From a candidate division WWE3 bacterium (lineage in GTDB: Bacteria > Patescibacteriota > WWE3 > UBA101185 > UBA10185): DNA of 64,000 nucleotides. The stretch is taken from NCBI GenBank assembly GCA_014729135.1, contig WJKK01000001.1:629407-693406 (forward strand), written 5' to 3'. The notes beneath the pieces are model-generated. The model had not been told where the DNA came from. It saw nothing but the letters and a program-made list of their open reading frames with translations, and did not search any database. Positions within the stretch are counted from its first letter, which is position 1, and each line of letters begins with the position of its first letter. The position numbers and the translations under genes were made by a program. Below are positions 18,176-56,768 of this stretch, piece by piece.

Positions 18176-19366
18176 CTAGAAACGTAAGATTGCGCCCAAA
18201 TCATCCTTGAGATTAAGCTCGGTGGACATAGCATCCGTCAACGGCACAATCTCTCCACCTGATAAAAGCGTCTTAACGACAAGAAAGTTCACTAAATCCC
18301 GGTTAGTAAAACCTCTCTCTTCTTCTACTATTGCGCCTCTGTTTTCAACGGAATAGTTGCCCCAAATTGTACGGGACGGATTCACAAACAGCACACTTAT
18401 TTTCTCCTCAAAAGCTGCGGGAGCCACCTTTTCCAGCCCTTCCACAACTTGTTCGGATGCCTTATGCTCCTTATAAGAATCTACAAAGTCCATCCGCTTT
18501 TCATCTATGCGATCTTTAACGATCTTCCAGGCTTCTTTAAGAATGTCCTCTGCAGCAGCTTCCTCCGGATTACCTTCAACATAGTCATCGGCTAAATTCG
18601 GATACTTGCCGAAATCTGAAAACTTGTTGTAAAGCTCTGTATCTGCAGCCAAAATCACTAGAGGCCTCTTATCATCTTCGATATCTGTGACAAAATGGTT
18701 CAGAGCCCAATCTACCTCATCCAGAAAAACCTTCTGCTGTTCATCAATAGCAGACTCCTGACTACCGTGTCCGTGTGCTCTTTGTGTCGGCTTTTCTCCC
18801 GGACGCGCTCCTCCCGCGGGATGTCTCTGAAGCTGGCTCTGAATATCATGAGTCCTTAGGGTTTCTTCTATATCTTCGGGCATTACGGTAGGCTCTTTTT
18901 TCTCCCAGTTGCGATTAACGCCTCTGTAAAGGGTAATGTGAGAATAACTAAGCGCTAAAACGTAATAAGTGGAGGATCCAAAGACGTAGGGGACTAGGGG
19001 CTTAACATTGGGAATGTCACTCACATAAAATTGTGCATCTACATTTTTGGGGAACTTGATCATTTCAGTGTAAGTTTCTGATCTAAAGATTGCTAAGCCG
19101 TCTTTTTGCTCCTGCCAAAAGGTAGTGTTTTGTTGTATTTTTTTGAGGGGTTTTAGCAAGTCATTTATTTTTGAAGCCGGCAGCGTCGACTTTTTAAGGA
19201 GTTTTTCTATTTCGTCGGTTTTATTTTTGAGGTGAATTTGTGCCTTTTCGTTGTTTTGCCAAACCGGACTCGTCGGAATGTAAAGAGAAATAACAGGAGG
19301 TTTGACCTGCCGCTGTAAAAGATTTTTAAGACGTTTTCTGGGATTCTGCTGTTTGGTAATTTTCAT
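18176..19366 (-). CDS. hypothetical protein (possible eRF1/Pelota-like fold)
   Basis: 396 aa. Central Gly/His-rich loop HPAGGARPGEKPTQRAHGHGSQE between two mixed alpha/beta regions; family not securely recognised. Confidence 0.4.
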   Translation of the reverse strand: MKITKQQNPRKRLKNLLQRQVKPPVISLYIPTSPVWQNNEKAQIHLKNKTDEIEKLLKKSTLPASKINDLLKPLKKIQQNTTFWQEQKDGLAIFRSETYTEMIKFPKNVDAQFYVSDIPNVKPLVPYVFGSSTYYVLALSYSHITLYRGVNRNWEKKEPTVMPEDIEETLRTHDIQSQLQRHPAGGARPGEKPTQRAHGHGSQESAIDEQQKVFLDEVDWALNHFVTDIEDDKRPLVILAADTELYNKFSDFGKYPNLADDYVEGNPEEAAAEDILKEAWKIVKDRIDEKRMDFVDSYKEHKASEQVVEGLEKVAPAAFEEKISVLFVNPSRTIWGNYSVENRGAIVEEERGFTNRDLVNFLVVKTLLSGGEIVPLTDAMSTELNLKDDLGAILRF

Positions 19367-27880: not shown

Positions 27881-29386
27881 CTAGTAACAAGAATAAATGA
27901 AAACTAGATCCTCATAAGGATCGGAAAAGACTTTTTCCAAGTTAGCGCAAACATCCACATTCATTCGGGAAGGATCTAATCCATTGGGGCGGTCTATATC
28001 CCTTGAGGTTACAAAATAATCCATTTGAGACTGCCACTCCGCAACTGCCACGCCTTTGTAATAGTAATTAAAACTTTCGATGTTATCAGGAATCCAAACC
28101 GTTTTATCGCGTCCTTTTGTGTTTAAATAATCAGCTGCTTGAGCAAAATATTCCCCGCTATTTTCATAAACTCCTGTTTTTAAGGCTGTGGGAGATCCTC
28201 CAAGAAGGGGAGAGTAGTAAGCGGAGTTCACCGGGAAGTACTGTAGGCAAATGAATCCGGAGAATAAAACTACCAAAGCCAAGATCAGGTTCTTATGGGC
28301 ACGTTTAAGCTGCTCTATATAAAACGCAACTGTCAGCAAGATAAAAGGGAAGAAAACTAGAGCATAACGGTCTATCTTTTTAGTGGATAAAGTTAGAAAA
28401 AGAAGGTAATTTGCAAGGCCGGCAAGAATCCAAAAGGCTTTTTTATTTTGCAGACTCTTTTTTATAGGAACTTGTATTAAAAATCCCACGAACAAGAGCA
28501 AACTAATAGGGGAGAGCTTAAAGACTAGAATAACGGGATAGTAGATATACTTCAATGCTCCGGGGAAAAGGGCGGCACGGGAATCTGTTGCGACGGCTTT
28601 AAAGATAGCGTTGTAGAGATTGGTGAAAACGTAGCCGGGGGCTACCCAAGTTGCGGGAAATAAAACCAGGAAGGTTATTGTGAACCCTGCCAAATAGAGA
28701 AGAAAAGGAGTAAATTTGCGGTTTTGTAGAAAATTACTGACTAATAGAGCCAATAGAATAGGTGCCAGAATTAACGACGTTAGTTTGGAGAGAACAGCAA
28801 GTGCAAAAAAGACCGCTGAAATTAGGAGAAATTTAGTTTTTTTGGAAGGTTCCACAGGTGGCGCAGCGAAATTAAAACGCCAATGCAGAAGAGACAAAAA
28901 AGCAGTAAAAGCAAAATACGTCTCCATGGAAGTTAGATGGAACCAGCGATCAATGCCTATTAAATAAGGTTCTGCGGTAATTAGGACTGCATAAATTAGA
29001 GCTATCTTGTTACTAAAAAGCTTTGAAATTAGGTGGATTTGGAAAAGTAAGAGGCCTGCTAAGACGAGATTAAGTTGAATCTTTGAAAGCATGTGGATGG
29101 TGGGGTAATAATCGGCATTTTCAAGCGTTTTGGGGGTTGTTTTTAGAATGTAGCGCTGAAATGAAGTAGCTGCTTGTTTTAGGGGAGCGTTTAGAAGCAT
29201 GAGTGTAACCCCCGGCTGGTAGTGCTGATAAGTGGATTTGAGATCGCCCGTTTTTATAGCTTGTAGAAAGTTGAGGCTACGCCGGTGCCAACGGGCTGCA
29301 TCAGAGTTGGAAATGTCGTTACCTGTACCTAAAACGCGAAGAAGTAGAAACATACATGCAATAAGAATGTAGACCTGCTTTTTCAT
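27881..29386 (-). CDS. GT-C fold glycosyltransferase (ArnT/PMT-like, GT39/GT83-like)
   Basis: 501 aa polytopic. N-terminal loop GTGNDISNSDAARWHRRS...GDLKSTYQHYQPGVTLM resembles the first periplasmic loop of ArnT/PMT proteins. Confidence 0.55.
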   Translation of the reverse strand: MKKQVYILIACMFLLLRVLGTGNDISNSDAARWHRRSLNFLQAIKTGDLKSTYQHYQPGVTLMLLNAPLKQAATSFQRYILKTTPKTLENADYYPTIHMLSKIQLNLVLAGLLLFQIHLISKLFSNKIALIYAVLITAEPYLIGIDRWFHLTSMETYFAFTAFLSLLHWRFNFAAPPVEPSKKTKFLLISAVFFALAVLSKLTSLILAPILLALLVSNFLQNRKFTPFLLYLAGFTITFLVLFPATWVAPGYVFTNLYNAIFKAVATDSRAALFPGALKYIYYPVILVFKLSPISLLLFVGFLIQVPIKKSLQNKKAFWILAGLANYLLFLTLSTKKIDRYALVFFPFILLTVAFYIEQLKRAHKNLILALVVLFSGFICLQYFPVNSAYYSPLLGGSPTALKTGVYENSGEYFAQAADYLNTKGRDKTVWIPDNIESFNYYYKGVAVAEWQSQMDYFVTSRDIDRPNGLDPSRMNVDVCANLEKVFSDPYEDLVFIYSCY

Positions 29387-30566: not shown

Positions 30567-31811
30567 ATGCTTTTTAAACGCAAAAAACTAATCATCACAA
30601 TAAGCAGAGAAAAGCTCGGTTTAGCTCTTGTGGACACTGCAAATAAACAAATCCTAAACAGAGCGGAAGAAAATTGGAATCCGGAGGAAACGGAAAAACT
30701 TAAAGGAATTCTGGATGACCTTTTTGCAACAGTAGGTAAAAGAAAAGTTCGAATCCTCTTGCGAAAAGACCTTTATTACCTGGCAAACTTTGAATTTGAC
30801 ACACCTCCCGATCGACAAGACGTCCTAAGTAAAGCAGCTGCAAAATTTCCCGAAAACCTGGATGAATATAGTTGGGATTTTAGAATCGAGAATCAAAACG
30901 CCAAAAAGACGCAATTTACAAAGCCCACTCAAGAAGAAAAAATCCAAGTAACCGCTTTTGCTCCGGTTAAGGAAATTTACCAAAAAATTGTTAAGCCTAT
31001 TCAAGCTGCAGGCATAAACATTGAAGCAGTTGAACCCGAAGAGCTGGCTAAAAAACGCCACGTAATTCCTGAAATCGGGCTTGCATTAAAAAAGGATATT
31101 AAAGGTAAAGACGCTAAGGTGCTTAATTTGAAAATGGATAAATCTGTTGCAAAGAAAGCTAAAAAAGAGGGTCTAAAAACTTTAAGTGAAGAGGATTCTT
31201 TTGTAGAGCGTGTGGTTTCAATTGAGAATGGTCCAAAAAAGACAATTAAGTTTGCGCTCTTGGCTGCCTTAGTTGCTTTTGTTTTTGGGATAGGTGTTTA
31301 TTTTCTTTTTTTGCGGGATTCGGGAGAAGCTGATTTAATGGAAACTTTGGAAACAAGCGAAAGTACTTCTGTTGAGGTTGAAGAGGTAGCAACAGAAACC
31401 CAGGAGGAAACAGGGGAGGAGACTAGTGAGGCGGCGGCAGAATCCTCTGAGGAAAATGAGGAAACCACAGAAACCCAGGAAGAGGTTGAAGAAACGGCAC
31501 CAACTCCTGCGGAGACGCTTTTAGAGGAGGTGGCTTTGCAGATACTAAACGGATCAGGTGTAGCGGGCGAGGCAGGAGCTACTCAGGAAATACTGGAAGC
31601 AGAAGGGTTTGAGGACATTTCTGTTGGAAATGCTGATAATTTTGATTACACAAAAACGCAGGTGCAGGTTAAAGCCTCAGTAGGAAGCAACGTTTATGAA
31701 ACTATAGAACGCGCTTTAAATAGTGAGTTTGAAGTGGGGCAAGCTGCAGAAACTTTGGATGCTACAGCGGATTATGATGTAATATTAATTGTAGGTGAAA
31801 GGCTTGAGTAG
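30567..31811 (+). CDS. membrane protein with C-terminal LytR_C-like domain and an acidic Glu/Thr-rich linker
   Basis: C-terminal LQILNGSGVAGEAGATQEILEAEGFEDISVGNADNFDYTKTQV resembles the LytR C-terminal domain. Confidence 0.4.
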   Translation: MLFKRKKLIITISREKLGLALVDTANKQILNRAEENWNPEETEKLKGILDDLFATVGKRKVRILLRKDLYYLANFEFDTPPDRQDVLSKAAAKFPENLDEYSWDFRIENQNAKKTQFTKPTQEEKIQVTAFAPVKEIYQKIVKPIQAAGINIEAVEPEELAKKRHVIPEIGLALKKDIKGKDAKVLNLKMDKSVAKKAKKEGLKTLSEEDSFVERVVSIENGPKKTIKFALLAALVAFVFGIGVYFLFLRDSGEADLMETLETSESTSVEVEEVATETQEETGEETSEAAAESSEENEETTETQEEVEETAPTPAETLLEEVALQILNGSGVAGEAGATQEILEAEGFEDISVGNADNFDYTKTQVQVKASVGSNVYETIERALNSEFEVGQAAETLDATADYDVILIVGERLE

Positions 31812-31868
31812 GCTGCATAAAAGGCGGCCAATTTGAGCAAGTATTAAATATTTTTAGTAAAGGAAATT

Positions 31869-32317
31869 ATGACTAAATTAAAACTGCCCAATTTTAAAAA
31901 GGGCGCAGAGACGGAGGTTTTACACTTATTGAGCTTCTATTAGTTATTTCAATTATTGCTGTTTTGGCAACGGTGGTTTTTGTCTCGCTGGATCCTGTTA
32001 AGCGGCTGGCTGATGGTAGAAATTCACGTCGATGGAATGATGTGAATAATATTTTAACAGCGGTGCATTCGTGCATTATTGATAATGACGGTGTTTTAGC
32101 GGATTGTGGTATTACTGATACAAGTTCTCATGTTTTAGGTACGGGAGATTTGGATTTGTCAACGGATCTGGCTAAGTATTTGAAGTCTATGCCACAGGAT
32201 CCTAAGACGGGAACTGCTGCGGATACGGGTTATTCGATTCAGGCGGATGCTAATAATATTGTGACGGTTACGGCGGATGACGCTGAGAATGGTGAGACGG
32301 TGGAGGTTTCTAGGTAG
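31869..32317 (+). CDS. type IV pilin/pseudopilin-like protein with a start-site defect (apparent frameshift between the leader and GFTLIELL)
   Basis: An ATG at 31869 encodes MTKLKLPNFKKG in frame 1. A classic prepilin segment GFTLIELLLVISIIAVLATVVF is encoded in the +2 frame from 31898, which has no start codon. The longest called ORF starts at a TTG inside the hydrophobic helix (31964). Confidence 0.45.
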
Positions 32318-32405
32318 GAACAGCGGGTAGAAGGAAATTTCTGGTAATGGAATGTGAAGTGGGAGTGGAAGACCCCGCGCGAGATCTTCCACTCAGTATG
32401 ATTAA

Positions 32406-32582
32406 TCAAGCCTTGGTCCAGTAACCCTTCCGGCAGGAAAACCCGCCGGACTGAAGATATGCATTGAGATCCGTGCGAGAAACAGTCTCGCCCGCTCGAC
32501 TCAAGGCCGACAAGATACCTCGAAAGGTAACTTCTTCTCCAGCCAGTAAACTATCCACCAGACTTCTCTGCTTTTCTGTCAT
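32406..32582 (-). CDS. small ORF (58 aa), possible DUF433-like antitoxin component
   Basis: Reverse-strand translation MTEKQRSLVDSLLAGEEVTFRGILSALSRAGETVSRTDLNAYLQSGGFSCRKGYWTKA, within a GC-rich islet. Confidence 0.25.
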   Translation of the reverse strand: MTEKQRSLVDSLLAGEEVTFRGILSALSRAGETVSRTDLNAYLQSGGFSCRKGYWTKA

Positions 32583-32597
32583 GTCTCTCTCCCTTAC

Positions 32598-32801
32598 CTA
32601 TTGACGCACAAACCAAAGAGTACCGCTTCGAGTCGAATGGCCATAAAACGTTTCGGAAGACCTCAGGTAATCGAGGAGTTTCGAGACTGTAATGCCTTGA
32701 TCACCCAAGGACATATGCAAATCAACTACGAGAATGCCTGAAGCGTCCTGTACGGCCTTCAGAATCCTCTTCTTCTGACCAAGAGTAAACAACGTCATCA
32801 C
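32598..32801 (-). CDS. small ORF (67 aa), possible DUF5615-like PIN-type toxin component
   Basis: MTLFTLGQKKRILKAVQDASGILVVDLHMSLGDQ loosely fits the DUF5615 pattern LF...L...L...G..V.HV.DLG....SD; within the same GC-rich islet. Confidence 0.3.
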   Translation of the reverse strand: MMTLFTLGQKKRILKAVQDASGILVVDLHMSLGDQGITVSKLLDYLRSSETFYGHSTRSGTLWFVRQ

Positions 32802-32872
32802 CTCCTTAATGAAAGGTTGTCAACTTAAAAAAGATAATAAAGGGAATTGCGGGCTTTGTAAAGTCCTATAAC

Positions 32873-34504
32873 CTAATCTACCAGATCCTTCCGCTTTAGA
32901 ACCGCCACAAAAGGATCCAAACCACAATGAGAACAAGGGTAATCCAACAAAGAAGCAGGCGGAGAAAAAGCCTTAACCGAAACATAATGCTTCAAAAACT
33001 CCTCTGAAGGAAACTTAAACTCATGACTAGCCTGCACCAACACATAATACTGCGGCAAAAAATTGGATCCGGGGGCCACCACATCATAAGCGCGAAGATA
33101 ATGCTCCGCTACAGTAGCATTATCATTTGTGTAAACCGTCCTAACACCCTCCAGTGAATACAGATAATCACGAACCTGCTTCCATTGCCTATTATAAGGA
33201 AAGCCGTACAAAAATAGATGGTTTTCTTCTTTGTTAGCATGCTCCAGGTGGAAACGTCCTAGCGACACATCTTTCCAGGGATATCCCAAATGAAGTTGCG
33301 GAACATAAATAAACAGGTCGCAAAGGAAGATAAATCCAAGGGTCAAAGTTGCAAGCACTGTTAAAAGGAGTTGTTTTATGCGTGAAGAGGCAAAGGTTTC
33401 ATAAAAACTTTGGAGGCCTAGTGCTGCAAGGATTATAGCCGTAATAAGATAATTGTGAATGTGGGTCCCGGGATTAGAAAAAAGCAGCTCAAAAGTAAGG
33501 AGGCCTATTATTAGCCAAAGCATGAAGGGGGAGGTGTCTTGGGTAAGTGCAGGGGGCTGGTTGGTTGTAGACTCTTTTGTTGCGGGAATCAAACTGCCTA
33601 TGATTACAAATGAAAAACTTAAAAGCAAGTAATAGGGGAGAAAGGGGGTGTAAGTTAGCATTGTATATAGGCTGTTGTTGCGGGCAAAAGTTCCTCCATT
33701 GAGACGCCGGGAAATGTAGCCTGCTGTGTGTTCTGTGAAGTATCCGTTAAGAAAGTAGGGAAGATAAAACGTGCTAAGAATAAGGAGGAGGGGGATTAAA
33801 AAGAGGAATATTTGTGGGAGGATCTTTTTTAGGAACCTTTTAGGGGTGGGGGATTTTAAATTGGGATCAGTAGGAATAAGTTGTTTTAGAAAGCCATAAA
33901 AAATTGGAATGGCAAGAAAGGCGGCATCCCAATGGGAAAGAAAAGCTAGTCCTAGGAAAGCTCCGGAAAGGATTAAGACTAATTTTGATTTTTTGGTGGA
34001 GACTTCCTCTGTAGAGTCAAGCGCATAAGAAAAGCACAAATTTGATAAAAATCCAAAAAGTAATAAGAAACTTTGGTATTGGATAGTGCGCGAAAAGGCA
34101 ATGTAAAAACCTGTTAGAGAAAGGAGAAAAGCTGCTAAGGCAGCTACTTTTTGGTTGTAAATTTTGCGGATCCAAAAGTAGAGGGCAAAAACGGCAAGTG
34201 TTCCTGCTATGGCAAAGGGAAGTCGGGTGTAAAACTCGTGAAAACCGGGATTTGGAATTTGAGGGTTGCTTGAGGGGATATTTGTTTGAAGGAGAATCTG
34301 TTGAGTAACCCAAACTACAAGAAATTGCACAGGTCCTTTGCGCTGGTTTAAGAGAAATTGTTTTGCAGGAACTGTTTTATCCCAATAAAAAGTTTTTGTT
34401 TCGTCACCATAAAAGTTAGAATAACCCAAACCTAAAAATCGGGGAGTTACCGTAACAACAAACAGGAGGGCCAAAACAAACCATTCTTTTTTTGTAACCC
34501 GCAT
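32873..34504 (-). CDS. GT-C fold glycosyltransferase (ArnT/PMT-like)
   Basis: Polytopic. First loop YGDETKTFYWDKT...QRKGPVQF resembles the DE-containing loop 1 of PMT/ArnT. Paralogous to the 39030..40631 gene. Start trimmed to the Met of MRVTKKEW. Confidence 0.6.
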   Translation of the reverse strand: MRVTKKEWFVLALLFVVTVTPRFLGLGYSNFYGDETKTFYWDKTVPAKQFLLNQRKGPVQFLVVWVTQQILLQTNIPSSNPQIPNPGFHEFYTRLPFAIAGTLAVFALYFWIRKIYNQKVAALAAFLLSLTGFYIAFSRTIQYQSFLLLFGFLSNLCFSYALDSTEEVSTKKSKLVLILSGAFLGLAFLSHWDAAFLAIPIFYGFLKQLIPTDPNLKSPTPKRFLKKILPQIFLFLIPLLLILSTFYLPYFLNGYFTEHTAGYISRRLNGGTFARNNSLYTMLTYTPFLPYYLLLSFSFVIIGSLIPATKESTTNQPPALTQDTSPFMLWLIIGLLTFELLFSNPGTHIHNYLITAIILAALGLQSFYETFASSRIKQLLLTVLATLTLGFIFLCDLFIYVPQLHLGYPWKDVSLGRFHLEHANKEENHLFLYGFPYNRQWKQVRDYLYSLEGVRTVYTNDNATVAEHYLRAYDVVAPGSNFLPQYYVLVQASHEFKFPSEEFLKHYVSVKAFSPPASLLDYPCSHCGLDPFVAVLKRKDLVD

Positions 34505-34532
34505 TTTATTTAACATACACATACATACTAAC

Positions 34533-34669
34533 AAGGATTATCCTTCGATAGAAACGAGCATCTCCCTTAGGTAGAATGTCCTCGCTGATTCGAACAAGGA
34601 TTATCCTTCAAAAAATTAGATAATTCCCTTAGATAGAACACTCCCGCAGATTTTAGTAAGGATAATCCT
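34533..34669. promoter_or_regulatory. three spaced copies of the palindrome AAGGATTATCCTT (third copy AAGGATAATCCT) within ~45-nt direct repeats, upstream of the GT-C gene
   Basis: Copies at 34533-34545, 34596-34608 and 34658-34669, each followed by TCCCTTAGRTAGAA about 25 nt downstream. Confidence 0.45.
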
Positions 34670-39029: not shown

Positions 39030-40631
39030 TCACTCAACAACATCCCCCGAAAAAAACAAAAAACCATCCCCCTTAGCCAACACCTCTCCACTAGGACACT
39101 CCATAGAACTTAAACTCTGCGGATCCTCTATATAAATAAAAACTTCAGGATCCTCATTCCAACCAAATCCCTGCATGTAATACTTGGCCAAGCGATACTT
39201 CTCATTAGAATAGTAAGTTTCAACTCCCAAATCCAAAGCCACCTTACGAACATCCTTCCAGTTACGACTATAAGGAAATCCAAAAATGCCCTCCACACGT
39301 TCACCGGAACTAATATTTGCAGGCATAAAACCCAAAATGTACTTTTTAGCATGCCAAGGATATTCGGGAGTAGTGTCAATAAATGCCTGAAAATTAAAGG
39401 AGGTTGTAGTAAAAAGCACTAAAACAAGCAGTGCAAAAAGAAAATTGCGAACAATACCTTTTTCCTTTAAAACAGCAGCCAGCTGACTAGCAAACAAAAT
39501 ACTAGCCGGTATAAAAACCACATAAATATGTGTCAACGCCTTTTCCATAACAAAAAAGTAGGCTACTAAACTTAATACAAACCAGCCCACAATTAAATTG
39601 TTAAAATTAAACTCCCGGCCAAAAAAGTAACTAACAAGCACGGCCAAACCAAAAACCAAACTAGATATATATAGCAGTTCATTACCCGCTCCCCGGAAAT
39701 ACCGAAAAAGACCTAACAAAAACAAGCCAATAACTAAAATACCACGATGCTTGCTAATAATTTGCTGCCGATAAATCCATAGGAAGCAGCCCACCAAGGA
39801 CAAAATCAAAAACTCCAAGGGATGATACATTTTTAAGATCTTTATCGAATAAAAAATGTTGTCATAAATGAAATCTGATTGAATTCGAGCAAAAAGCAAA
39901 TAGCGAATTATTTCCGAGGGTTCCGGCGTTCTCAGGAAAAGCACAGTAAAGTAAATTGCGGGCATTATAAGAGTAGTAGCAATGTATATGAAAGCAGGCT
40001 TAAAGCGCTTTGAAGCCATTAAAAGGAAGAGTATGGGAAGTATGAAGCTAAAAGAGTCGTAGTGAAACAGAAGGCCAACTCCGGAAAATACGCCGGATAA
40101 AATTAGGAGTCTTTTCTGTTTGGATTTAGCGGGAGCGGCTAACCCATCCAACTGAGCATATTTCAGCATTAGCCAACAAACGATAACTGAAATTAAAATT
40201 ACAAAGACTTGATACTGCACTATTCGAGAAAAAGCTATCATTAAGCCGGATAAAGAAATTAAGGAAGTGGCCAAAAGGGCCGTCATTTTATCTTTATGTT
40301 TCCTTACAAAAAAGTAAAGAAGAGGCAATAAAGCGATACCGGTTAAAGCAAAAGGTAAGCGAACATAAAGTTCAATGTTTTTTAGGTTCTCTACGTTGAA
40401 ATCATAGGCAAAGATGTTTGCCAAAGCTGAAACCGCATATTGTCCGGGGCCCTTCGTTCGCGTAAAGATGAACTTAAAAAATTCCTGCTCCCCGAAGAGG
40501 TAGTTTTGGGCAGCCACTTCATCCCCTTGAAAATCTGAATAGCCTAATTTTGCCAATCTGAAATAAGCGCCTAATAAGATAATGAGAATTATAAAAATTT
40601 TTTCGGCTGATTGAGGAAATTTCTTATTCAC
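39030..40631 (-). CDS. GT-C fold glycosyltransferase (ArnT/PMT-like)
   Basis: 533 aa polytopic. Loop 1 QGDEVAAQNYLFGEQEFFKFIFTRTKGPGQYAV carries a DE motif. Paralogue of the 32873..34504 gene. Confidence 0.6.
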   Translation of the reverse strand: MNKKFPQSAEKIFIILIILLGAYFRLAKLGYSDFQGDEVAAQNYLFGEQEFFKFIFTRTKGPGQYAVSALANIFAYDFNVENLKNIELYVRLPFALTGIALLPLLYFFVRKHKDKMTALLATSLISLSGLMIAFSRIVQYQVFVILISVIVCWLMLKYAQLDGLAAPAKSKQKRLLILSGVFSGVGLLFHYDSFSFILPILFLLMASKRFKPAFIYIATTLIMPAIYFTVLFLRTPEPSEIIRYLLFARIQSDFIYDNIFYSIKILKMYHPLEFLILSLVGCFLWIYRQQIISKHRGILVIGLFLLGLFRYFRGAGNELLYISSLVFGLAVLVSYFFGREFNFNNLIVGWFVLSLVAYFFVMEKALTHIYVVFIPASILFASQLAAVLKEKGIVRNFLFALLVLVLFTTTSFNFQAFIDTTPEYPWHAKKYILGFMPANISSGERVEGIFGFPYSRNWKDVRKVALDLGVETYYSNEKYRLAKYYMQGFGWNEDPEVFIYIEDPQSLSSMECPSGEVLAKGDGFLFFSGDVVE

Positions 40632-48448: not shown

Positions 48449-50074
48449 TTATTTACACTTATAAATTTTCCAATAGGGGAGGGATCTAAAGCGTATTTTT
48501 GTTTCAAGTGTGCAGTGGGAATAGTCGGGAGGTAGTTCTTCATGATTTGCAGCCACTAAATATTCCACAGTCCAACCGTTAGGTAAATCCTGATTTAACG
48601 TGTAGATCTTTCCTTTTACAAAAGGACGCAGCCGATGCACCTTGTTAGATGTAATTACTATTTTAAGATCAGAGGGATTGTCTTTGGAGTTTAAGTAATC
48701 ACCAACATTACTACATAACGAACAGCCAAACTGATCTTTCCCTTTGATGCTAGGATATAAAAGATAATTTGGAAAATAATAGGCAGTAGTGGAAACGGCA
48801 AGTAAAAAACTTGCTAATAAAAAGTATTTTTTATTCTTATTGGAGAAGGTTTTTTTTATTTGAACTAAAAGATACCCTCCAAAAAAAGCTAAAAAGGGAA
48901 TCAAAGGCAAAAGATAGCGATCCATTTTTTGAGCAACTAAAGACATCTGTACAAAATAGAAAAGTGCATAACAAAGAATTAAAATTGCTGATTTCTCGCG
49001 CGAGAAAACTTTATTAAAACTTCTTAATAATTCCTTAATATTCCTAGAGGATAAGTCAAACGAAGTAAAAATGTCACTAAGAAAATTACGAATATAAAGA
49101 GCAATACCTAAAAAAGCAGAAACCAGAAATACAAGAGTTAAATCTCTATACAGGGGCTCAAAGTAATCAAAAAACCCATTAAAAATTTCGGAGGAGGCAT
49201 CAGCACCATCGCGACCAACTCGCGCTAAAAACAATCCCTCGTTAATAAAAATAATTTTAAGGTTTTCCAGCGGTTCTATCCACATATCAGGGAAAACTGC
49301 TACAAAAGTAAAAGCACATGTAAAAAACCAAATTAAAACCGCTTTAAGATAAAACCAGAAATTACGACGTTGTGTAATGAAATCCGAAAAAAGTGCTAAA
49401 ACAAAATAAGGCAGTAAAAAAATAGCGGAGGATTTAGAAAGCAATGCCAATCCTGCGAAAACTCCCGAAAAAATAAGCCATTTCCATTTAGGTACTTCAG
49501 AAGAACTCAAAAAAAGTAAAAGCAAAAGTGCGGAAATTCCCATAAACGCCGTAACAGTGCTGTCTGCATGAAAATTCCGGGAAAGGCCAATATAAAAGGG
49601 TTGCAAACCGAACAACAAAACCGAGAAAAAAGCTAACTTCTTAGAAAAAAGCTTAGAAACAACTAAATAGTAAACCAAAATAAATCCCAAACTAACAAGA
49701 ATTAAAGGAGCAATTACAGCCGTATGAACCAAATGGAAAGTGTCGTAAGTCCATATTTGAGGGCGAAAACCATAATGCCACTCGTATAAATTCAAGAACG
49801 TCTCCAAACTTAACCCGGAAAGCCAATGAACCGTAATTCCCGGCTTGGGATTTTGCAAAGTTTCGCCCCAATCATGATCCTGAATTTCGGAAATAAACTC
49901 CTCTGTACGGGAATACCAAAACTGGGCATCATTGTTTATGGAGGCGCGTCCCAAACGATAGAAACTAAAGAAGGTTATTAAGAGGAAAAGAACAACAAAG
50001 AGTTTGTCGTAAAAGGAAAATTGAGATGCAAAAGTACTGACATTTTCCTTAAAGTTTTTGCAAAAAGAAACCAT
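48449..50074 (-). CDS. GT-C fold glycosyltransferase (ArnT/PMT-like)
   Basis: 541 aa polytopic with an ArnT-like N-terminal loop; C-terminal soluble domain of ~100 aa. Confidence 0.55.
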   Translation of the reverse strand: MVSFCKNFKENVSTFASQFSFYDKLFVVLFLLITFFSFYRLGRASINNDAQFWYSRTEEFISEIQDHDWGETLQNPKPGITVHWLSGLSLETFLNLYEWHYGFRPQIWTYDTFHLVHTAVIAPLILVSLGFILVYYLVVSKLFSKKLAFFSVLLFGLQPFYIGLSRNFHADSTVTAFMGISALLLLLFLSSSEVPKWKWLIFSGVFAGLALLSKSSAIFLLPYFVLALFSDFITQRRNFWFYLKAVLIWFFTCAFTFVAVFPDMWIEPLENLKIIFINEGLFLARVGRDGADASSEIFNGFFDYFEPLYRDLTLVFLVSAFLGIALYIRNFLSDIFTSFDLSSRNIKELLRSFNKVFSREKSAILILCYALFYFVQMSLVAQKMDRYLLPLIPFLAFFGGYLLVQIKKTFSNKNKKYFLLASFLLAVSTTAYYFPNYLLYPSIKGKDQFGCSLCSNVGDYLNSKDNPSDLKIVITSNKVHRLRPFVKGKIYTLNQDLPNGWTVEYLVAANHEELPPDYSHCTLETKIRFRSLPYWKIYKCK

Positions 50075-51449: not shown

Positions 51450-53306
51450 TTAATCAGTAACGCAATAACCGCCAATAACAGGAGTCTTACCAAGTAAACT
51501 GTAAATTGGAGAAAAGTAAGAATTCTTGTAACTAAAATCCTCCTCATGCCACTCCAAAGGTTCAACGCCTGCCGTAGCTTTATTCTCAAACACCTCCGGG
51601 TTCTTATAGAAATAATTAAAGGTTCTACTGTTTTCTGTGCGATTTAAAAATGACAGTAAAATTCCGGGATTTTCCGGTTCAATTACATCTTTTTGAACAA
51701 AACATTCATAATTCAAGCCTCCCGGAATTGCTTCCATTACATCCGCGGGATTATCAAACCTGCCAACATGCATGTAACGCGTAAAGGAACCGCGAACAAA
51801 GACATTAGTAACAAGATTATGCTCCTCCTGAAATTTATAACCCAGCTTCCAGCGCAACTCCTCTTCGGTGTAAAAATCCCAAGTTAAAAACACTGTTACT
51901 ATAGCCAAGAAAGAAAGAGCAATAAACCCGCAGCTACGAGCATAAAAACCCTTTAGATCTACCAACAAACCACTCCTTGATAAGTAAACACCCACTAGAA
52001 GCGTCAAAAAAGGAAAGGCAGCAATAAAATAACGATCATAAAAATCGCTGGTTAAAAGGCTCCCAACAAAAACAACTCCAAAAAGGCCAAGAACAGTTAA
52101 ACTTAAAGAAAGCATTTGTAAATCAAAATCCTTGCGACAACAAGAGGCAATAAAACCTTCCAGCCAGTCAATAAATAAGTAAACTCCCAACAAAAAAGTG
52201 AATGATAAGTAAACGCTTAGACCCAACTTAAAAGGGATGTTGTCAAAAAGGCTAATCCAGTGGGTGAAATCGGATTTTGTGTAAAAACCTTCAATGTAAA
52301 AGACGTTGCCAACCGCAAAAATATCCTTTTGATAAAAAAGCGGAAAAATTAACAAAGCGGCAACAAGACTAATCCATTTAACTTTTACAGGAATCTTTTT
52401 GTAAGCCACATAAACAAGTGGTGAAAGGAAAAAGGCCACATAAGGAATTAAATAGGGATACATCTTAATTTGCTTATAGAAATTTTCTAAATCAACGGGA
52501 TTGCCTAAAATACGCGTTTCTGAAGCTTCAACATATTGTGGCCATTTTGTGTACAAGAACAAAAGGCTTATAAAAGGCACTACTAAAATAACGAGCTCCT
52601 TCCACTTAAACTTTTTTGTGTGAAATTGATCATGTGCCAAAACTAAAAAGTAGGCTATTAAAAAGACGAGGCCAAATTGGCGGATATAAAGACTAGCGCC
52701 TGCTAAAAGACTTGCTACTAAGAGGTGGGTAATATTTCGTTTTTCTAAATAGTGAAGGAAAAGGTAAAGACTCCAGATGGCAAAGGTTAAAAAGTAGATT
52801 TCGGTCATGTAGGAAAGAGCAGAGGTGAAAAAGAGGGGATTAAAGATGATTGTTAGTAGTGTTAGGGCTGTTAGGGTTTTTTTAGTTTTTTTGGGCTGCA
52901 GTTTTTGGAGGGTTTTGTAGGCACCAAATAAGAAAGCAAAGCTAAAAAGGATGGTTAAAATGCGGAGGGACAGGAAGCTAAATCCAAAAAGTTTTGTCCA
53001 GAGAATTCCTAAAAGGCCTTGCAGAACAAAGGCTGTGTCAATTAGGCGGTTTTTTGCAAAGATGCCCTGTGAAAAGAGGCGGGTGTGAATGTAGAAGTCC
53101 CAATCGTCGTTTACAGCGTGGTTTCCCCAAGGGCTTACAAGGAGGATGGCTAGGATGTAGAGAGCGAGGGTTATGGTTAAGGGGTTTTTGAGGATTGGGG
53201 GGAGGGAGGAGGTTTTTGGGATTTTGACTTTATGGAGAATTCTACAAAGGGGGTTTTGTGATTTTTGAAAGATTTTCATTTTTTTTAGTTTTGCAGGAAG
53301 TTTCAT
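51450..53306 (-). CDS. large polytopic membrane protein, GT-C-like
   Basis: 618 aa with 12 or more TM helices and a C-terminal soluble domain; loop HAVNDDWDFYIHTRLF near the N-terminus. Confidence 0.5.
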   Translation of the reverse strand: MKLPAKLKKMKIFQKSQNPLCRILHKVKIPKTSSLPPILKNPLTITLALYILAILLVSPWGNHAVNDDWDFYIHTRLFSQGIFAKNRLIDTAFVLQGLLGILWTKLFGFSFLSLRILTILFSFAFLFGAYKTLQKLQPKKTKKTLTALTLLTIIFNPLFFTSALSYMTEIYFLTFAIWSLYLFLHYLEKRNITHLLVASLLAGASLYIRQFGLVFLIAYFLVLAHDQFHTKKFKWKELVILVVPFISLLFLYTKWPQYVEASETRILGNPVDLENFYKQIKMYPYLIPYVAFFLSPLVYVAYKKIPVKVKWISLVAALLIFPLFYQKDIFAVGNVFYIEGFYTKSDFTHWISLFDNIPFKLGLSVYLSFTFLLGVYLFIDWLEGFIASCCRKDFDLQMLSLSLTVLGLFGVVFVGSLLTSDFYDRYFIAAFPFLTLLVGVYLSRSGLLVDLKGFYARSCGFIALSFLAIVTVFLTWDFYTEEELRWKLGYKFQEEHNLVTNVFVRGSFTRYMHVGRFDNPADVMEAIPGGLNYECFVQKDVIEPENPGILLSFLNRTENSRTFNYFYKNPEVFENKATAGVEPLEWHEEDFSYKNSYFSPIYSLLGKTPVIGGYCVTD

Positions 53307-54215: not shown

Positions 54216-54320
54216 TCCGCTATGGTCGACCAGGATTACAAACATTATTTCCTTACTGTAGCAACAATGAATACCGAGTTCTAAATTTTGGAGACCTAAC
54301 AGGACAACTCGAACTTTTTT
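54202..54320. repeat. composite attC-like junction: 31-nt Repeat A (AGTTGCAAACATAGTCCGCTATGGTCGACCA), a 66-nt spacer, and 22-nt Repeat B (ACAGGACAACTCGAACTTTTTT)
   Basis: Repeat A overlaps the GNAT stop codon. Repeat B overlaps the stop of the minus-strand 54319 gene. The outer termini AAAAAGTT..GTCC and GGAC..AACTTTTT are inverted. Confidence 0.55.
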
Positions 54321-55263
54321 ATTCAATAGTGGTAATTGGCCTACTCTGAGTTATATAAAATGTATTATCCCTATAAGCCCACTCAATATCTTGGGGCTTG
54401 TCGTAAAATGATTCTACTGTTGTACATATCCTTGCTAATTCCTGAATACGTCTATAATCCAACTTTTGACTATACTCTTCTTCGATTTCTTCCCATTCCA
54501 AGCCTTTTAGATCTTTGGGTAAAGCTAACTTTCTATCTTGTTCGGCAATATCAACACGCAAAACTACATCGTATTCCTTGTTATACTCATAAGAATCGGG
54601 GGTCAATTGGCCAGAAACTATACCCTCACCAAGTCCATATACTGCTTCAATAAGCATAATGTTCTTTTGCATTGAAATTGGATGAACTGTAAAGCATATG
54701 CCAGAAATGTCGCTTTGAACCATCTCTTGTACTACAACTGCCACCGCTCCATCTTTTGGTTTTATTTTCCTTTCTAAAGCATAAGTTATCGCTCTGGGGG
54801 AATAAAGAGATGCCCAACATTTTTTTATGTTGTCTATCAGATCTTCTTTAGTAGTGTTTAAATACGTTTCAAGTTCACCCGCCCAAGAATCTGTATCCGA
54901 ATCCTCAGAAGTGGCGGAACTACGGACAGCAACCAAATTCAGGTTTAGTGTATCGTACTGTGTCAAAATTTCATTCTTGAGCTTGTCGGCAATGCTTCCT
55001 TTTGTTATGGCCGCTTGGATTCTTTCACTGGCCTTGTTTATACCATCAAGATTACTTACAGTAACTTTTTCTAAAGAACTACTAATTACCTTTTCTAGTT
55101 CGTTAGTACTCAAAAACTTTTCAAAAGCTCTCGTTGTAACAACAAAACCTTGAGGTATAGGAATACCATACTGATACATCTTTGCCAGGGAAGCTCCCTT
55201 ACCACCAGTAAGTTTATTGTCTGTACACTTTGAATTTTCGAATATAAGAACTAGATCTTCCAT
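54319..55263 (-). CDS. PEP-utilising enzyme, N-terminal ATP-grasp (PPDK_N-like) domain protein
   Basis: KLTGGKGASLAKMYQYGIPIPQGFVVTTRAFEKFL matches the PEP synthase/PPDK nucleotide-binding N-domain. Confidence 0.65.
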   Translation of the reverse strand: MEDLVLIFENSKCTDNKLTGGKGASLAKMYQYGIPIPQGFVVTTRAFEKFLSTNELEKVISSSLEKVTVSNLDGINKASERIQAAITKGSIADKLKNEILTQYDTLNLNLVAVRSSATSEDSDTDSWAGELETYLNTTKEDLIDNIKKCWASLYSPRAITYALERKIKPKDGAVAVVVQEMVQSDISGICFTVHPISMQKNIMLIEAVYGLGEGIVSGQLTPDSYEYNKEYDVVLRVDIAEQDRKLALPKDLKGLEWEEIEEEYSQKLDYRRIQELARICTTVESFYDKPQDIEWAYRDNTFYITQSRPITTIE

Positions 55264-55265
55264 AT

Positions 55266-56768
55266 TTACTCCACAACCTCAACAATACCTTTTACGGCAT
55301 TAACTTTAACTTTATCTCCTGTTTTTATAATTTTTGTAGCGGATTTTGTACCTATTACACAAGGTATTTTAAGCTCCCTGGATACTATAGCTGCATGACT
55401 AGTAATACCACCCTCATTAGTAACTATCGCAGATGATTTTCTTATAGCAGGCATCAAACTTGGCCTAGTATTTCCAATAACTAGAATTGCACCTTCGGGC
55501 ATGCTTTTAACCTTCTTGTTAAAATCTTTATCTCCCCAGTTCATACAATAAGCTTTTCCTTCCACAACACCAGGAAAGGCAGTATTGCCCTCAATTTCTT
55601 TAATGGCATCGTAATTAGGCTTAGGTACTAGTTTGTTGAATTCAGCTATTGCACTGTCTCCATAAACAGACTTAGTAAGAACATCATTCTTTACTAAGAA
55701 TAGGTAGGCTTTGTAGCGATCCTTTGTCTTAAAGCTATCTTCAATATCTTCTTTACTAAAATCAATCTGAACTAGTTCACCAGGAGATAACGCCAACAGT
55801 GTATATGCAGGGATTTGCGTTAGCCTGGAAATTTTATAAACGAGTTCTCTCAACATCCTAAAGTACGCTGACCAAAGAATTCGTAGCTCAAGACGGTAGC
55901 GACCTAAATTTGCTAAACAGTCAGCTACATAAACTGTAGGCATTTCCAAACGGTGCTTATTTATAAATTCTTCTTTATTCACTCTGGCATTCTCGACAGC
56001 TTTGCTAAGCTCTGTTACTTTCTCGGACAAATTAACCTTAGAATCCAAACAATCCCTAAGAAGACCTATATAGTGCTGCAAATCCCAGTGGTCTGCTCCT
56101 TCATTTCCACTTAAGTGGCCATATTTTTTTATATGACTGTCTAGGGCATCTTTAAATTCCTTATAATCGGTAATCGTTTCTAGATTTATATCAGGCAAAA
56201 CATCTTCATATTTAAGTAGCAGTTTAAAAAAATCCTCCTCTTCATGATGCAACATAGATTTCTCCACAGGCGCTGTTAAAACAGCCACTGCTTCAGATAA
56301 ATCATCCTGTTCTAAATCATTAGCTAGATGATCTTCCAATCCTTTTGTAAATTGTGGGTTGGTCATGTTAAAAAAGGCAAACACATCAATTAGGGCCTGG
56401 GAAATATTAGCTAGAAGTTTTTGAATCACCGCCAAATCTTCCACATCATCAAACTGGGTCCTGAACAAGATTTGATCTTCCTTCAACTTCTTCTGTTTTT
56501 TCTTTACAGAATTAATAAATTCTCTATATTGTTCTTTATCCTGAAAATAGCTATAACCAAACTTCCCAGCTGCCTCCAAATCCTCTGGGGAGTGATAGGC
56601 TTCCAATACCTCATTCCTTGCAAATAGCAGCATACCTTTTGAAAAATACCCAAACAACTCTTTTTGCCTATCTACACAAAAAATTGTCCCATGTCCCATT
56701 TCAAATACGGGCGCATCTGCAACTTCCCAGATTTTTTCCCATTTTAGTGGCTCCTTTTTATCTACCAT
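55266..56768 (-). CDS. PEP-utilising enzyme mobile (phosphohistidine swivel) domain protein with a ~370-aa unknown N-terminal region
   Basis: C-terminal GGITSHAAIVSRELKIPCVIG is the phospho-His swivel-domain signature. It is separated by 2 nt from the downstream PPDK_N gene. Confidence 0.65.
   Translation of the reverse strand: MVDKKEPLKWEKIWEVADAPVFEMGHGTIFCVDRQKELFGYFSKGMLLFARNEVLEAYHSPEDLEAAGKFGYSYFQDKEQYREFINSVKKKQKKLKEDQILFRTQFDDVEDLAVIQKLLANISQALIDVFAFFNMTNPQFTKGLEDHLANDLEQDDLSEAVAVLTAPVEKSMLHHEEEDFFKLLLKYEDVLPDINLETITDYKEFKDALDSHIKKYGHLSGNEGADHWDLQHYIGLLRDCLDSKVNLSEKVTELSKAVENARVNKEEFINKHRLEMPTVYVADCLANLGRYRLELRILWSAYFRMLRELVYKISRLTQIPAYTLLALSPGELVQIDFSKEDIEDSFKTKDRYKAYLFLVKNDVLTKSVYGDSAIAEFNKLVPKPNYDAIKEIEGNTAFPGVVEGKAYCMNWGDKDFNKKVKSMPEGAILVIGNTRPSLMPAIRKSSAIVTNEGGITSHAAIVSRELKIPCVIGTKSATKIIKTGDKVKVNAVKGIVEVVE

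What the first reader, a model, noticed from the sequence alone, without database searches (positions are those of the whole stretch)
31869..32317. Type IV pilin-like gene with the leader and mature N-terminus in different frames
The ATG at 31869 encodes MTKLKLPNFKKG, a typical basic prepilin leader ending in Gly. The hallmark mature N-terminus FTLIELLLVISIIAVLATVVF is encoded in the +2 frame. The two are separated by a 14-nt stretch (gcagagacggaggt) and a TAA at 31895 in the pilin frame. A single extra G in the ggagg/tttt run would give ...KKGAETEG|FTLIELL. This is a homopolymer sequencing error, a recent pseudogenisation, or programmed frameshifting. The GC-rich 3' end of the gene also differs in composition from the surrounding sequence.
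Basis: seen in the sequence. Interest (0 to 1): 0.5.

Follow-up and report, generated by a model that had tools for sequence, protein, structure and literature searches.

The report
Frameshifted type IV pilin gene
This is an ordinary type IV pilin gene of a tiny uncultured (WWE3/CPR) bacterium that is one base short inside its signal-leader, so the start codon and the pilin body are out of frame; relatives have the gene intact, so this is a sporadic mutation or assembly error, not a programmed recoding signal.

Summary
ATG 31869 has a Shine-Dalgarno-like AAGGA upstream and opens a genuine prepilin leader, MTKLKLPNFKKG. The mature pilin, G|FTLIELL... to stop 32317, lies in the -1 (+2) frame. 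A TAA at 31895 and the absence of any ATG/GTG/TTG block that frame upstream.

Orthologues are overwhelmingly single ORFs: 45 of 46 evaluable metagenome loci and most of the top 120 protein clusters. There is no slippery heptamer and no stimulatory structure (z = -0.43). Conserved programmed frameshifting is therefore rejected.

One base is missing between 31896 and 31918, in the A5G3 run or the GGAGG run. Similar one-base-short leaders occur sporadically in three other lineages. One of them is identical in seven contigs from seven different samples, so real alleles of this kind exist.

Most likely this is a recent real frameshift (an off or pseudogene allele). An assembly error is the main rival, and only reads can separate the two. 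Interest is low.

The parts
30567..31811 (+). Upstream gene for a 414-aa LytR_C-domain protein. It is the conserved upstream neighbour of this pilin family and probably shares an operon with the pilin.
   Evidence: Pfam LytR_C E=1.6e-9. The same neighbour sits upstream in L001, L008, L089, L095 and L147. In L001 and L089 its stop overlaps the pilin ATG (ATGA). No sigma-70-like promoter was found in the 57-nt gap.
31860..31864 (+). Shine-Dalgarno-like AAGGA, 4 nt upstream of the ATG.
   Evidence: Read directly from the sequence.
31869..31904 (+). Prepilin leader coding segment in frame 0: MTKLKLPNFKKG.
   Evidence: LPNFKKG matches the in-frame leaders MLPNIKKGTKG|F (L147, with different codons) and VKYLPNIKKGLTAVRRG|F (L124).
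31895..31897 (+). TAA stop in the pilin frame. It closes that frame upstream of the mature part.
31896..31918 (+). The 23-nt interval in which one base must be missing. It contains the runs A5 (31896-31900), G3 (31901-31903) and GGAGG (31913-31917). It also contains the A_AAG tetranucleotide (31898-31901), the only conceivable -1 slip site.
   Evidence: The spacer between the KKG codons and the F+1 codon is 14 nt here, against 9 nt in L147 and 21 nt in L124.
31941..31943 (+). TAG that ends the frame-0 reading after 24 codons.
31916..32317 (+). G-1 codon, the 132-codon mature pilin (F+1 at 31919 to R at 32312-32314) and the TAG stop, all in the -1 frame relative to the ATG.
31928..32317 (+). 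The CDS implied by the NCBI protein GF360_03340 (MBD3366346.1, 129 aa, MELLLVIS...), which would have to start at ATT. This start lacks the leader and F1-T-L-I, so the product could not be a processed pilin.
   Evidence: Sequence of P0001. The coordinates and the ATT start are inferred by comparing P0001 with the window translation; no NCBI feature table was read.
32363..32394 (.). Perfect 10-bp inverted repeat GAGTGGAAGA / TCTTCCACTC (14 bp with G-U pairs on the - strand), 46 nt after the pilin stop. It may be a terminator hairpin between convergent units. No U-tract follows it.
   Evidence: Folds. The terminator scan did not flag it.

Best explanation
The locus is a bona fide type IV pilin gene of a candidate division WWE3 (CPR/Patescibacteria) bacterium. 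It belongs to a widespread CPR pilin family that sits downstream of a LytR_C-domain gene.

In this genome the leader-coding segment is one nucleotide short, somewhere in 31896-31918. The A5G3 run is the most plausible site. Ribosomes that start at ATG 31869 therefore make a 24-residue peptide and terminate at TAG 31941. The G|FTLIELL mature pilin is not translated as a processable prepilin.

The deletion is a sporadic, lineage-specific event and is probably real. The rest of the gene is undamaged and the leader is still recognisable, so the event is recent. The state is that of a young pseudogene or an OFF allele of the pilin, not a programmed recoding site.

Shown: pilin identity, the frame structure, intact orthologues, and the absence of frameshift signals. 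Inferred: that the missing base is in the genome rather than only in the assembly, and that the event is recent.
For: 1. Frame structure and lack of any in-frame start.
3. There are 253 homologues. The listed orthologues are mostly single ORFs with short basic leaders ending in G|FTLIELL.
4. An unbiased DNA-level survey seeded on the C-terminal domain found an in-frame ATG or GTG leader in 45 of 46 evaluable loci.
5. The window sequence keeps all invariant and nearly invariant residues of the family and has no other stop or frameshift in 133 codons.
6. The frame-0 leader LPNFKKG is conserved at the amino-acid level with different codons in L147. The ATG frame is therefore the ancestral coding frame.
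7. Real alleles of the same kind exist. The P0033 lineage has atgAAAAAAAtaaagg, one base short of an in-frame MKKNKG-type leader; the closest intact lineage, L089, reads MKRNKG. That allele is identical over up to 4 kb in seven contigs, L001-L007, from seven different samples. L095 and L102 are further one-base-short leaders.
8. Leader-coding DNA of the family is 44% A on average, and 23 of 43 distinct leaders contain an A-run of 5 or more. It is an indel-prone target.
9. No other split gene was seen in the 64-kb window, which argues against an error-prone assembly.
Against: No reads and no second assembly of this strain were available. Exact look-ups failed, and no pilin more than 90% identical other than the genome's own was found. 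A consensus error at A5/G3 therefore cannot be excluded.

Recency is inferred only from the lack of further damage. A5 and G3 are short runs, so neither mutation nor sequencing error is especially favoured there.
Confidence: 0.55

Rival explanations
1. Assembly or sequencing artefact. The organism's real gene has one more A or G in 31896-31918 and is a simple intact 149-codon prepilin gene, MTKLKLPNFKKGRRDGG|FTL... or ...KKGAETEG|FTL....
For: The defect is exactly one base and sits next to short homopolymers. Everything else in the gene is perfect and all family-invariant residues are kept. Orthologues are intact. Only one assembly of this strain exists.
Against: Runs of 5 A or 3 G are not typical error sites for short-read consensus. 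The window holds 293 A5 runs and 160 longer A runs, yet no other split gene was seen. An equivalent one-base-short leader in another lineage is reproduced in seven contigs from seven different samples, so real alleles of this kind occur.
Confidence: 0.27
2. Leaky or corrective -1 ribosomal frameshifting. tRNA-Lys on AAG (31899-31901) slips back to AAA (31898-31900). A fraction of ribosomes then read GGG CGC AGA GAC GGA GGT TTT and produce full-length prepilin MTKLKLPNFKK-GRRDGG|FTL. The gene would stay functional at a reduced level.
For: An A_AAG tetranucleotide is in the right frame and position. A_AAG is the minimal -1 shift-prone motif in E. coli, and indels compensated by low-level frameshifting are documented (PMC5009743). 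The downstream ORF is undamaged. L001 also has A_AAG before the G-1 codon.
Against: There is no X_XXY_YYZ heptamer; the sequence is T_AAA_AAG, so the P-site tRNA would re-pair to UAA. There is no SD-like element upstream of the site. The downstream 98 nt fold no better than shuffles (z=-0.43). The two-frame layout is not conserved. An 'AAG G' in frame 0 arises automatically whenever an AAA-GGN (Lys-Gly) junction is read one base out of phase, so its recurrence is not independent evidence. L095 has C_AAG instead.
Confidence: 0.08
3. Reversible phase variation. The Lys-codon A-tract or G-tract of the leader gains and loses a base at high frequency, switching pilin expression ON and OFF in the population. 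Neisseria pilC does this with a homopolymer in its coding region.
For: Four independent lineages carry one-base-short leaders, three of them at or next to A-runs: window A5G3, L001 A7 and L102 A8. Four of the five disruptions seen in the family fall in the leader, which is about 10% of the gene. Leaders are A-rich. The same leader nucleotides (CTGCCCAAT) are read in different frames in different lineages, so frame changes recur in evolution.
Against: The tract here is only A5/G3, whereas recognised contingency loci use about 7-9 or more repeats (pilC G9-20; PMC5953494). The seven L001-type contigs show no tract-length variation. L095 has no homopolymer at all. The protein-database route favours leader disruptions, because those leave near-full-length ORFs.
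Confidence: 0.07
4. A truncated, unprocessed membrane-anchored protein is made from an internal non-canonical start. This is the ATT at 31928 implied by the NCBI protein sequence, helped by the GGAGG at 31913-31917.
For: GGAGG lies 10 nt upstream of the ATT. The NCBI protein GF360_03340 (MELLLVIS...) matches a start at that codon.
Against: ATT starts are very rare. The product would lack the leader, G-1, F+1 and the first residues needed for prepilin peptidase processing and fibre assembly. In orthologues the corresponding GGA GGT simply encodes Gly residues of the leader.
Confidence: 0.03

Closest known systems
Type IV pilins and type II secretion pseudopilins with a class III signal peptide (Pfam N_methyl PF07963 / TIGR02532). 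Structural neighbours: Clostridioides difficile PilJ (4ixj), Vibrio cholerae EpsG (4lw9) and Thermus thermophilus PilA4 (6xxd).
   Same: G|FTLIE cleavage/methylation motif with Glu+5, a hydrophobic alpha1-N helix, a long N-terminal helix packed on a small beta-sheet, and a size of about 130 residues.
Type IV pili of cultivated Patescibacteria (Saccharibacteria), which mediate host binding and twitching (PMC11623550, abstract seen).
   Same: A CPR lineage in which T4P are conserved and presumed central to the episymbiotic lifestyle.
   Different: Different class (WWE3/Katanobacteria). No functional data exist for this pilin. The assembly machinery was not seen in the 64-kb window.
Neisseria pilC phase variation by frameshift in a coding-region homopolymer (Jonsson et al. 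1991, as cited in PMC5953494).
   Same: A one-base change in a homopolymer near the 5' end of a pilus gene switches expression off.
   Different: pilC tracts are G9-20 and show tract-length polymorphism. Here the runs are A5/G3 and no polymorphism could be shown.
E. coli dnaX programmed -1 frameshifting at A_AAA_AAG, and A_AAG tetranucleotide slippage (PMC5009743).
   Same: A Lys AAG codon preceded by A, and a shift direction of -1.
   Different: No full heptamer, no upstream SD-like stimulator, no downstream stem-loop, and no conservation among orthologues.
Transcriptional slippage at long poly(A) runs that rescues frameshifted genes in insect endosymbionts (PMC5009743).
   Same: A small AT-rich genome and a one-base frame defect in an A-run.
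   Different: The described cases use long poly(A) runs, whereas the window has only A5. The idea is more relevant to the A7 and A8 alleles of L001 and L102.

Membership tests
Type IV pilin / prepilin (class III signal peptide) | G-1 | F+1 (T/S) L (I/V) E+5 cleavage-methylation motif | tested here: met
   GGT TTT ACA CTT ATT GAG at 31916-31933. Pfam N_methyl 32.1 bits against a 21.2 cutoff. TIGR02532 29.2 bits against a 16.3 cutoff.
Type IV pilin / prepilin (class III signal peptide) | Hydrophobic alpha1-N segment followed by a long helix packed on an antiparallel beta-sheet (pilin fold) | tested here: met
Type IV pilin / prepilin (class III signal peptide) | Short, basic leader peptide with an initiator Met, contiguous and in frame with the mature sequence | tested here: not met
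   The leader MTKLKLPNFKKG is in frame 0. The mature part is in the -1 frame, with TAA 31895 upstream and no start codon in that frame.
Type IV pilin / prepilin (class III signal peptide) | Cognate prepilin peptidase (PilD) and assembly ATPase/platform (PilB/PilC) in the genome | not testable with these tools
   None of the 43 window proteins scanned with Pfam is one of these. Only 64 kb of the 864-kb contig is available.
Programmed -1 ribosomal frameshift site (dnaX / IS3 type) | Slippery heptamer X_XXY_YYZ in the zero frame | tested here: not met
   The zero-frame codons are TTT AAA AAG. Only T_AAA_AAG is present, that is, the A_AAG tetranucleotide.
Programmed -1 ribosomal frameshift site (dnaX / IS3 type) | Stimulatory elements: an upstream SD-like sequence and/or a downstream stem-loop or pseudoknot | tested here: not met
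   No SD-like sequence lies 10-14 nt upstream. The fold of 31893-31990 gives z=-0.43, and 61 of 200 shuffles fold at least as well.
Programmed -1 ribosomal frameshift site (dnaX / IS3 type) | Two-frame organisation conserved among orthologues | tested here: not met
   45 of 46 evaluable metagenome loci are single ORFs, as are nearly all of the top 120 protein clusters.
Phase-variable contingency locus (homopolymeric simple sequence repeat) | Long homopolymer (about 7-9 or more) in the 5' coding region | tested here: not met
   The window has A5 and G3 only. L001 has A7 and L102 has A8.
Phase-variable contingency locus (homopolymeric simple sequence repeat) | Tract-length polymorphism within a strain or population | tested here: inconclusive
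   There are no reads for the window strain. The seven L001-type contigs are identical, all with A7. Assemblies report consensus only.

The most novel reading that the evidence does not exclude
The Lys-rich, A-tract-rich leader of this CPR pilin family may be a recurrent target of one-base deletions that act as a heritable OFF switch. The switch could be reversible, or leaky through A_AAG slippage or poly-A transcriptional slippage. That would give ultrasmall episymbiotic bacteria a way to vary pilus expression, for example to escape pilus-dependent phages or to detach from hosts. The window would be one OFF-state example. Supporting this reading, the same leader nucleotides (CTGCCCAAT) are read in different frames in different lineages.
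Probability: 0.12. Interest if true: 0.5.

Novelty: new member of a known kind. Interest (0 to 1): 0.2.

Why it matters
The practical value lies mostly in annotation. The deposited protein for this locus (129 aa, MELLLVIS..., which requires an ATT start) hides the fact that it is a frameshifted prepilin gene. It should be flagged as a pseudogene or frameshifted CDS, or corrected if reads show an extra base.

Type IV pili are thought to be central to host attachment and DNA uptake in CPR bacteria. Loss or switching of a major pilin in a natural population would therefore be of ecological interest. The sporadic recurrence of one-base-short leaders in four lineages is a modest lead for a population-level study. 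It is not evidence of a new mechanism.

Tried and rejected
1. Conserved programmed frameshift. Rejected from orthologue comparison and the lack of a heptamer or structure.
2. An alternative in-frame start. There is no ATG, GTG or TTG between TAA 31895 and G-1.
3. A genome-contig scan with the full-length alignment. It was swamped by the generic FTLIELL motif and returned hardly any true orthologues. The search was redone on metagenome contigs with a C-terminal-domain alignment.
4. Independent assemblies of the same strain. Exact look-ups of P0001, the 117-aa TTG ORF and the LytR_C protein all found nothing. The P0001 cluster has a single member.
6. Other split genes in the window, as a sign of an error-prone assembly. 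The candidates 41369/42150 (SDR plus RecD-like helicase), 58025/59004 and 54319/55266 are separate genes or not interpretable as one protein.
7. 'AAG G' at the junction in three disrupted lineages as a shared slip signal. Rejected, because it follows automatically from reading AAA-GGN one base out of phase.
8. Composition anomaly or horizontal transfer of the gene's 3' end. Rejected: gene GC and GC3 are typical.
9. Rfam found nothing in 31800-32900, even at E<=1.
10. Literature. No paper in the library links pilin frameshifts with CPR.

Full report
**What is in the sequence**

- An AAGGA Shine-Dalgarno-like element (31860-31864) precedes ATG 31869.
- Frame 0 reads MTKLKLPNFKKGAETEVLHLLSFY and stops at TAG 31941.
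- The +2 (equivalent to -1) frame reads TAA(31895) KGRRDGG|FTLIELLLVISIIAVLATVVF...VSR and stops at 32315-32317.
- A script that walked upstream from the F+1 codon found no ATG, GTG or TTG between the TAA and the G-1 codon.

The gene is therefore exactly one base short of a single ORF. The missing base can lie anywhere in 31896-31918.
- An extra A in the A5 run, or an extra G in the G3 run, gives MTKLKLPNFKKGRRDGG|FTL.
- Both versions keep the KKG.
- A second pilin in L118 has the leader MKRNPKGDGNGG|F. This weakly favours reading the spacer in the pilin frame (..RRDGG).

**Identity**

- The frame-corrected protein passes Pfam N_methyl (E=7.3e-8, 32.1 bits) and NCBIfam TIGR02532.
- A search of the 5.8-billion-protein collection gave 253 homologues. 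The best intact ones are 74-78% identical. Where a source name exists, it points to CPR/Patescibacteria.
- The 99% hit is the genome's own annotation: hypothetical protein GF360_03340, candidate division WWE3 bacterium, MBD3366346.1, on an 864,248-bp contig. Its sequence begins MELLLVIS, which implies a start at ATT 31928.
- An AlphaFold2 model of the mature part has mean pLDDT 94, with a long N-terminal helix and a four-stranded sheet.
- Foldseek against the PDB found nothing significant.
- The window protein keeps every invariant and nearly invariant column of the family alignment.

**Context**

- The upstream gene (30567-31811) encodes a LytR_C-domain protein. The same neighbour precedes the pilin in every related locus examined. 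In L001 and L089 it overlaps the pilin ATG as ATGA.
- No sigma-70-like promoter was found in the 57-nt gap. Co-transcription is therefore likely.
- No PilB, PilC, PilD or PilM was found among the 43 window proteins scanned with Pfam.
- The six-frame translation contains only this one GFTLIE motif.

**Is the two-frame layout conserved?**

It is not.
- The leaders of the listed orthologues are short, basic and in frame, for example MKKTKG|F, MRKIGKKAKG|F and MLPNIKKGTKG|F.
- To avoid gene-caller bias, I scanned JGI metagenome contigs with an alignment of the C-terminal domain only. I then inspected the N-terminal region of each locus by script.
- 45 of 46 evaluable loci have an in-frame ATG leader, or a GTG-only leader in 4 of them.
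- The frame-0 leader of the window is genuine. LPNFKKG aligns with in-frame LPNIKKG in L124. It also aligns with L147 (ATG CTG CCT AAC ATA AAA AAA GGA ACT AAA GGT|TTT), which uses different codons.
- The spacer between KKG and F+1 is 9 nt in L147, 21 nt in L124 and 14 nt in the window.

**Signals for recoding**

- The zero-frame codons at the only candidate site are TTT AAA AAG. This is an A_AAG tetranucleotide, not an X_XXY_YYZ heptamer.
- A_AAG is the minimal -1 shift-prone motif in E. coli and gives relatively low-level shifting (PMC5009743).
- No SD-like element lies upstream of the site.
- The 98 nt from the site onward fold no better than shuffles (z=-0.43).
- Transcriptional slippage needs much longer A-runs than A5 (PMC5009743).

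**Sporadic recurrence**

Three N-terminally truncated protein clusters in the hit list, and one metagenome locus, turned out to be disrupted orthologues.
- **P0033 (L001-L007).** The leader reads ATG AAA AAA ATA AAG GTT, with GGT TTC ACA (G F T) in the -1 frame. This is an A7 run one base short of an in-frame MKKNKG-type leader; the closest intact lineage, L089, reads MKRNKG (ATG AAA AGA AAC AAA GGT). The seven fetched contigs come from seven different samples and are identical over up to 4 kb. The allele is therefore real, not a random error.
- **L001 versus the intact L089.** dN=0.033 and dS=0.42, a ratio of 0.08. This shows long-term constraint on the family. It does not date the frameshift.
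- **P0112 (L095).** The sequence is AAC AAG GAT TCA, one A short of AAC AAA GGA TTC.
- **L102.** It has an A8 run with the ATG in frame 0 and the transmembrane helix in the -1 frame. Its G|FTLIE motif is itself degraded.
- **P0050 (L008).** It carries an in-frame TAG in the transmembrane helix.

All four leader defects are one-base deficits. The 'AAG G' seen at the junction in the window, L001 and L095 arises automatically whenever an AAA-GGN (Lys-Gly) junction is read one base out of phase. It is not an independent slip signal.

Leader DNA in the family averages 44% A, and 23 of 43 distinct leaders carry an A-run of 5 or more. The leader is therefore a plausible mutational soft spot. The protein-database route favours leader disruptions, because they leave near-full-length ORFs. 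The only unbiased figure is 1 of 46 loci.

**Frame hopping in the leader**

- CTGCCC is the most over-represented hexamer in the 60 nt upstream of F+1: 6 of 48 distinct leaders against 0.25 expected. TGCCCAAT occurs 4 times against 0.03 expected.
- The motif is read as CTG CCC AAT (LPN) in the window, L118 and L124.
- It is read as xCT GCY Cxx (TAQ, SAR or TAR) in L096, L106, L134 and L138.
- In L110 it lies in the SD-ATG spacer.
- The leader has therefore changed frame repeatedly during evolution, with compensation by a second indel or a new start.
- The window looks like the uncompensated intermediate.

**Real mutation or assembly error?**

This cannot be settled here.
- No reads are available.
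- No second assembly of the strain is on record.
- In favour of a real allele, the window shows no other split gene despite 293 A5 runs and 160 longer A runs.
- Also in favour, equivalent real alleles exist elsewhere.
- In favour of an error, the defect is a single base next to short homopolymers in an otherwise perfect gene.

My estimates are:

| Explanation | Probability |
|---|---|
| Real, recent frameshift (pseudogene or OFF allele) | ~0.55 |
| Assembly error | ~0.27 |
| Functional leaky -1 frameshifting | ~0.08 |
| Reversible phase variation | ~0.07 |
| Truncated product from the ATT start | ~0.03 |

**Composition**

- The gene's GC (0.427; GC3 0.348) is typical for this window.
- The locally higher GC of its last ~200 nt coincides with the Ala/Thr/Gly/Asp-rich C-terminal segment that is conserved in orthologues.
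- The GC-rich block at 32320-32800 is outside the gene.

**Verdict**

This is an ordinary CPR type IV pilin gene carrying a one-base frame defect in its leader. The programmed-frameshift reading is not supported. The error-versus-mutation question needs reads. Novelty and interest are low. The modest lead is that the leader of this pilin family is recurrently hit by one-base deletions.

Noticed in passing
window 32318-32870: A GC-rich block (0.47-0.52 against a window mean of 0.387) lies between the pilin stop and the PMT_2 gene. It holds two small minus-strand ORFs (58 and 67 aa) with no Pfam or NCBIfam hit, and they are unrelated to each other. The 58-aa ORF shows no codon-position GC periodicity. 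The minus-strand RNA of 32318-32600 folds with z=-2.66, including a 14-bp hairpin at 32363-32394. There is no Rfam hit even at E<=1 and no similar stretch in any fetched locus. It may be an unannotated structured RNA or a relic.
   Followed up: partly
window 31884-31892; L096, L106, L107, L110, L118, L124, L134, L138, L147 leader regions: The nucleotide motif CTGCCC(AAT) is strongly over-represented in the leader regions of orthologous pilins (6 of 48 against 0.25 expected). It is read in different reading frames in different lineages, or lies in the 5' UTR. This implies repeated frame changes of the leader, or a constraint at the nucleotide level.
   Followed up: partly
L001-L007 (about 2939-2956 in L001): An orthologous pilin has an A7 run one base short of an in-frame leader (ATG AAA AAA ATA AAG GTT / GGT TTC ACA). 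The allele is identical in seven contigs from seven different samples, so it is a real, stable frameshifted allele. The intact sister lineage is L089-L094 (dN/dS 0.08).
   Followed up: yes
L008 2896-3336 (GCA_054920195.1, JBUDQK010000031.1): An orthologous pilin is split by an in-frame TAG inside the transmembrane helix (IIAIL*AVVF). The gene caller reports a 30-aa N_methyl ORF plus a 111-aa ORF.
   Followed up: no
L102 about 1335-1460 (Ga0066639_10024815): A divergent orthologue has an A8 run, with the leader ATG in frame 0 and the transmembrane helix in the -1 frame. Its G|FTLIE motif is degraded to KKSTQTVLLVII. This is either an older pseudogene or a candidate for transcriptional slippage.
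   Followed up: partly
window 31928-32317: The NCBI protein for this locus (GF360_03340, MBD3366346.1, 129 aa) begins MELLLVIS, which implies a start at ATT 31928. The protein name gives no hint that this is a frameshifted prepilin gene.
   Followed up: yes
window 18176-19366 (-): A 396-aa protein matches the bacterial archaeo-eukaryotic release factor families (baeRF family 3, E=2.2e-29).
   Followed up: no
window 32873-34534, 39030-40631, 48449-50074, 51450-53306 (all -): Four paralogous PMT_2 (GT39-like) membrane glycosyltransferase genes lie within 64 kb. A fifth similar-looking 501-aa membrane protein at 27881-29386 has no Pfam hit. The number is unusually high for such a small genome.
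   Followed up: no
window 54319-56768 (-): Two adjacent genes are 2 nt apart in different frames. The upstream 500-aa product ends in a PEP-utilizers swivel domain, and the downstream 314-aa product is a PPDK_N ATP-grasp domain. This is the reverse of the usual PpsA or rifampicin-phosphotransferase domain order.
   Followed up: no
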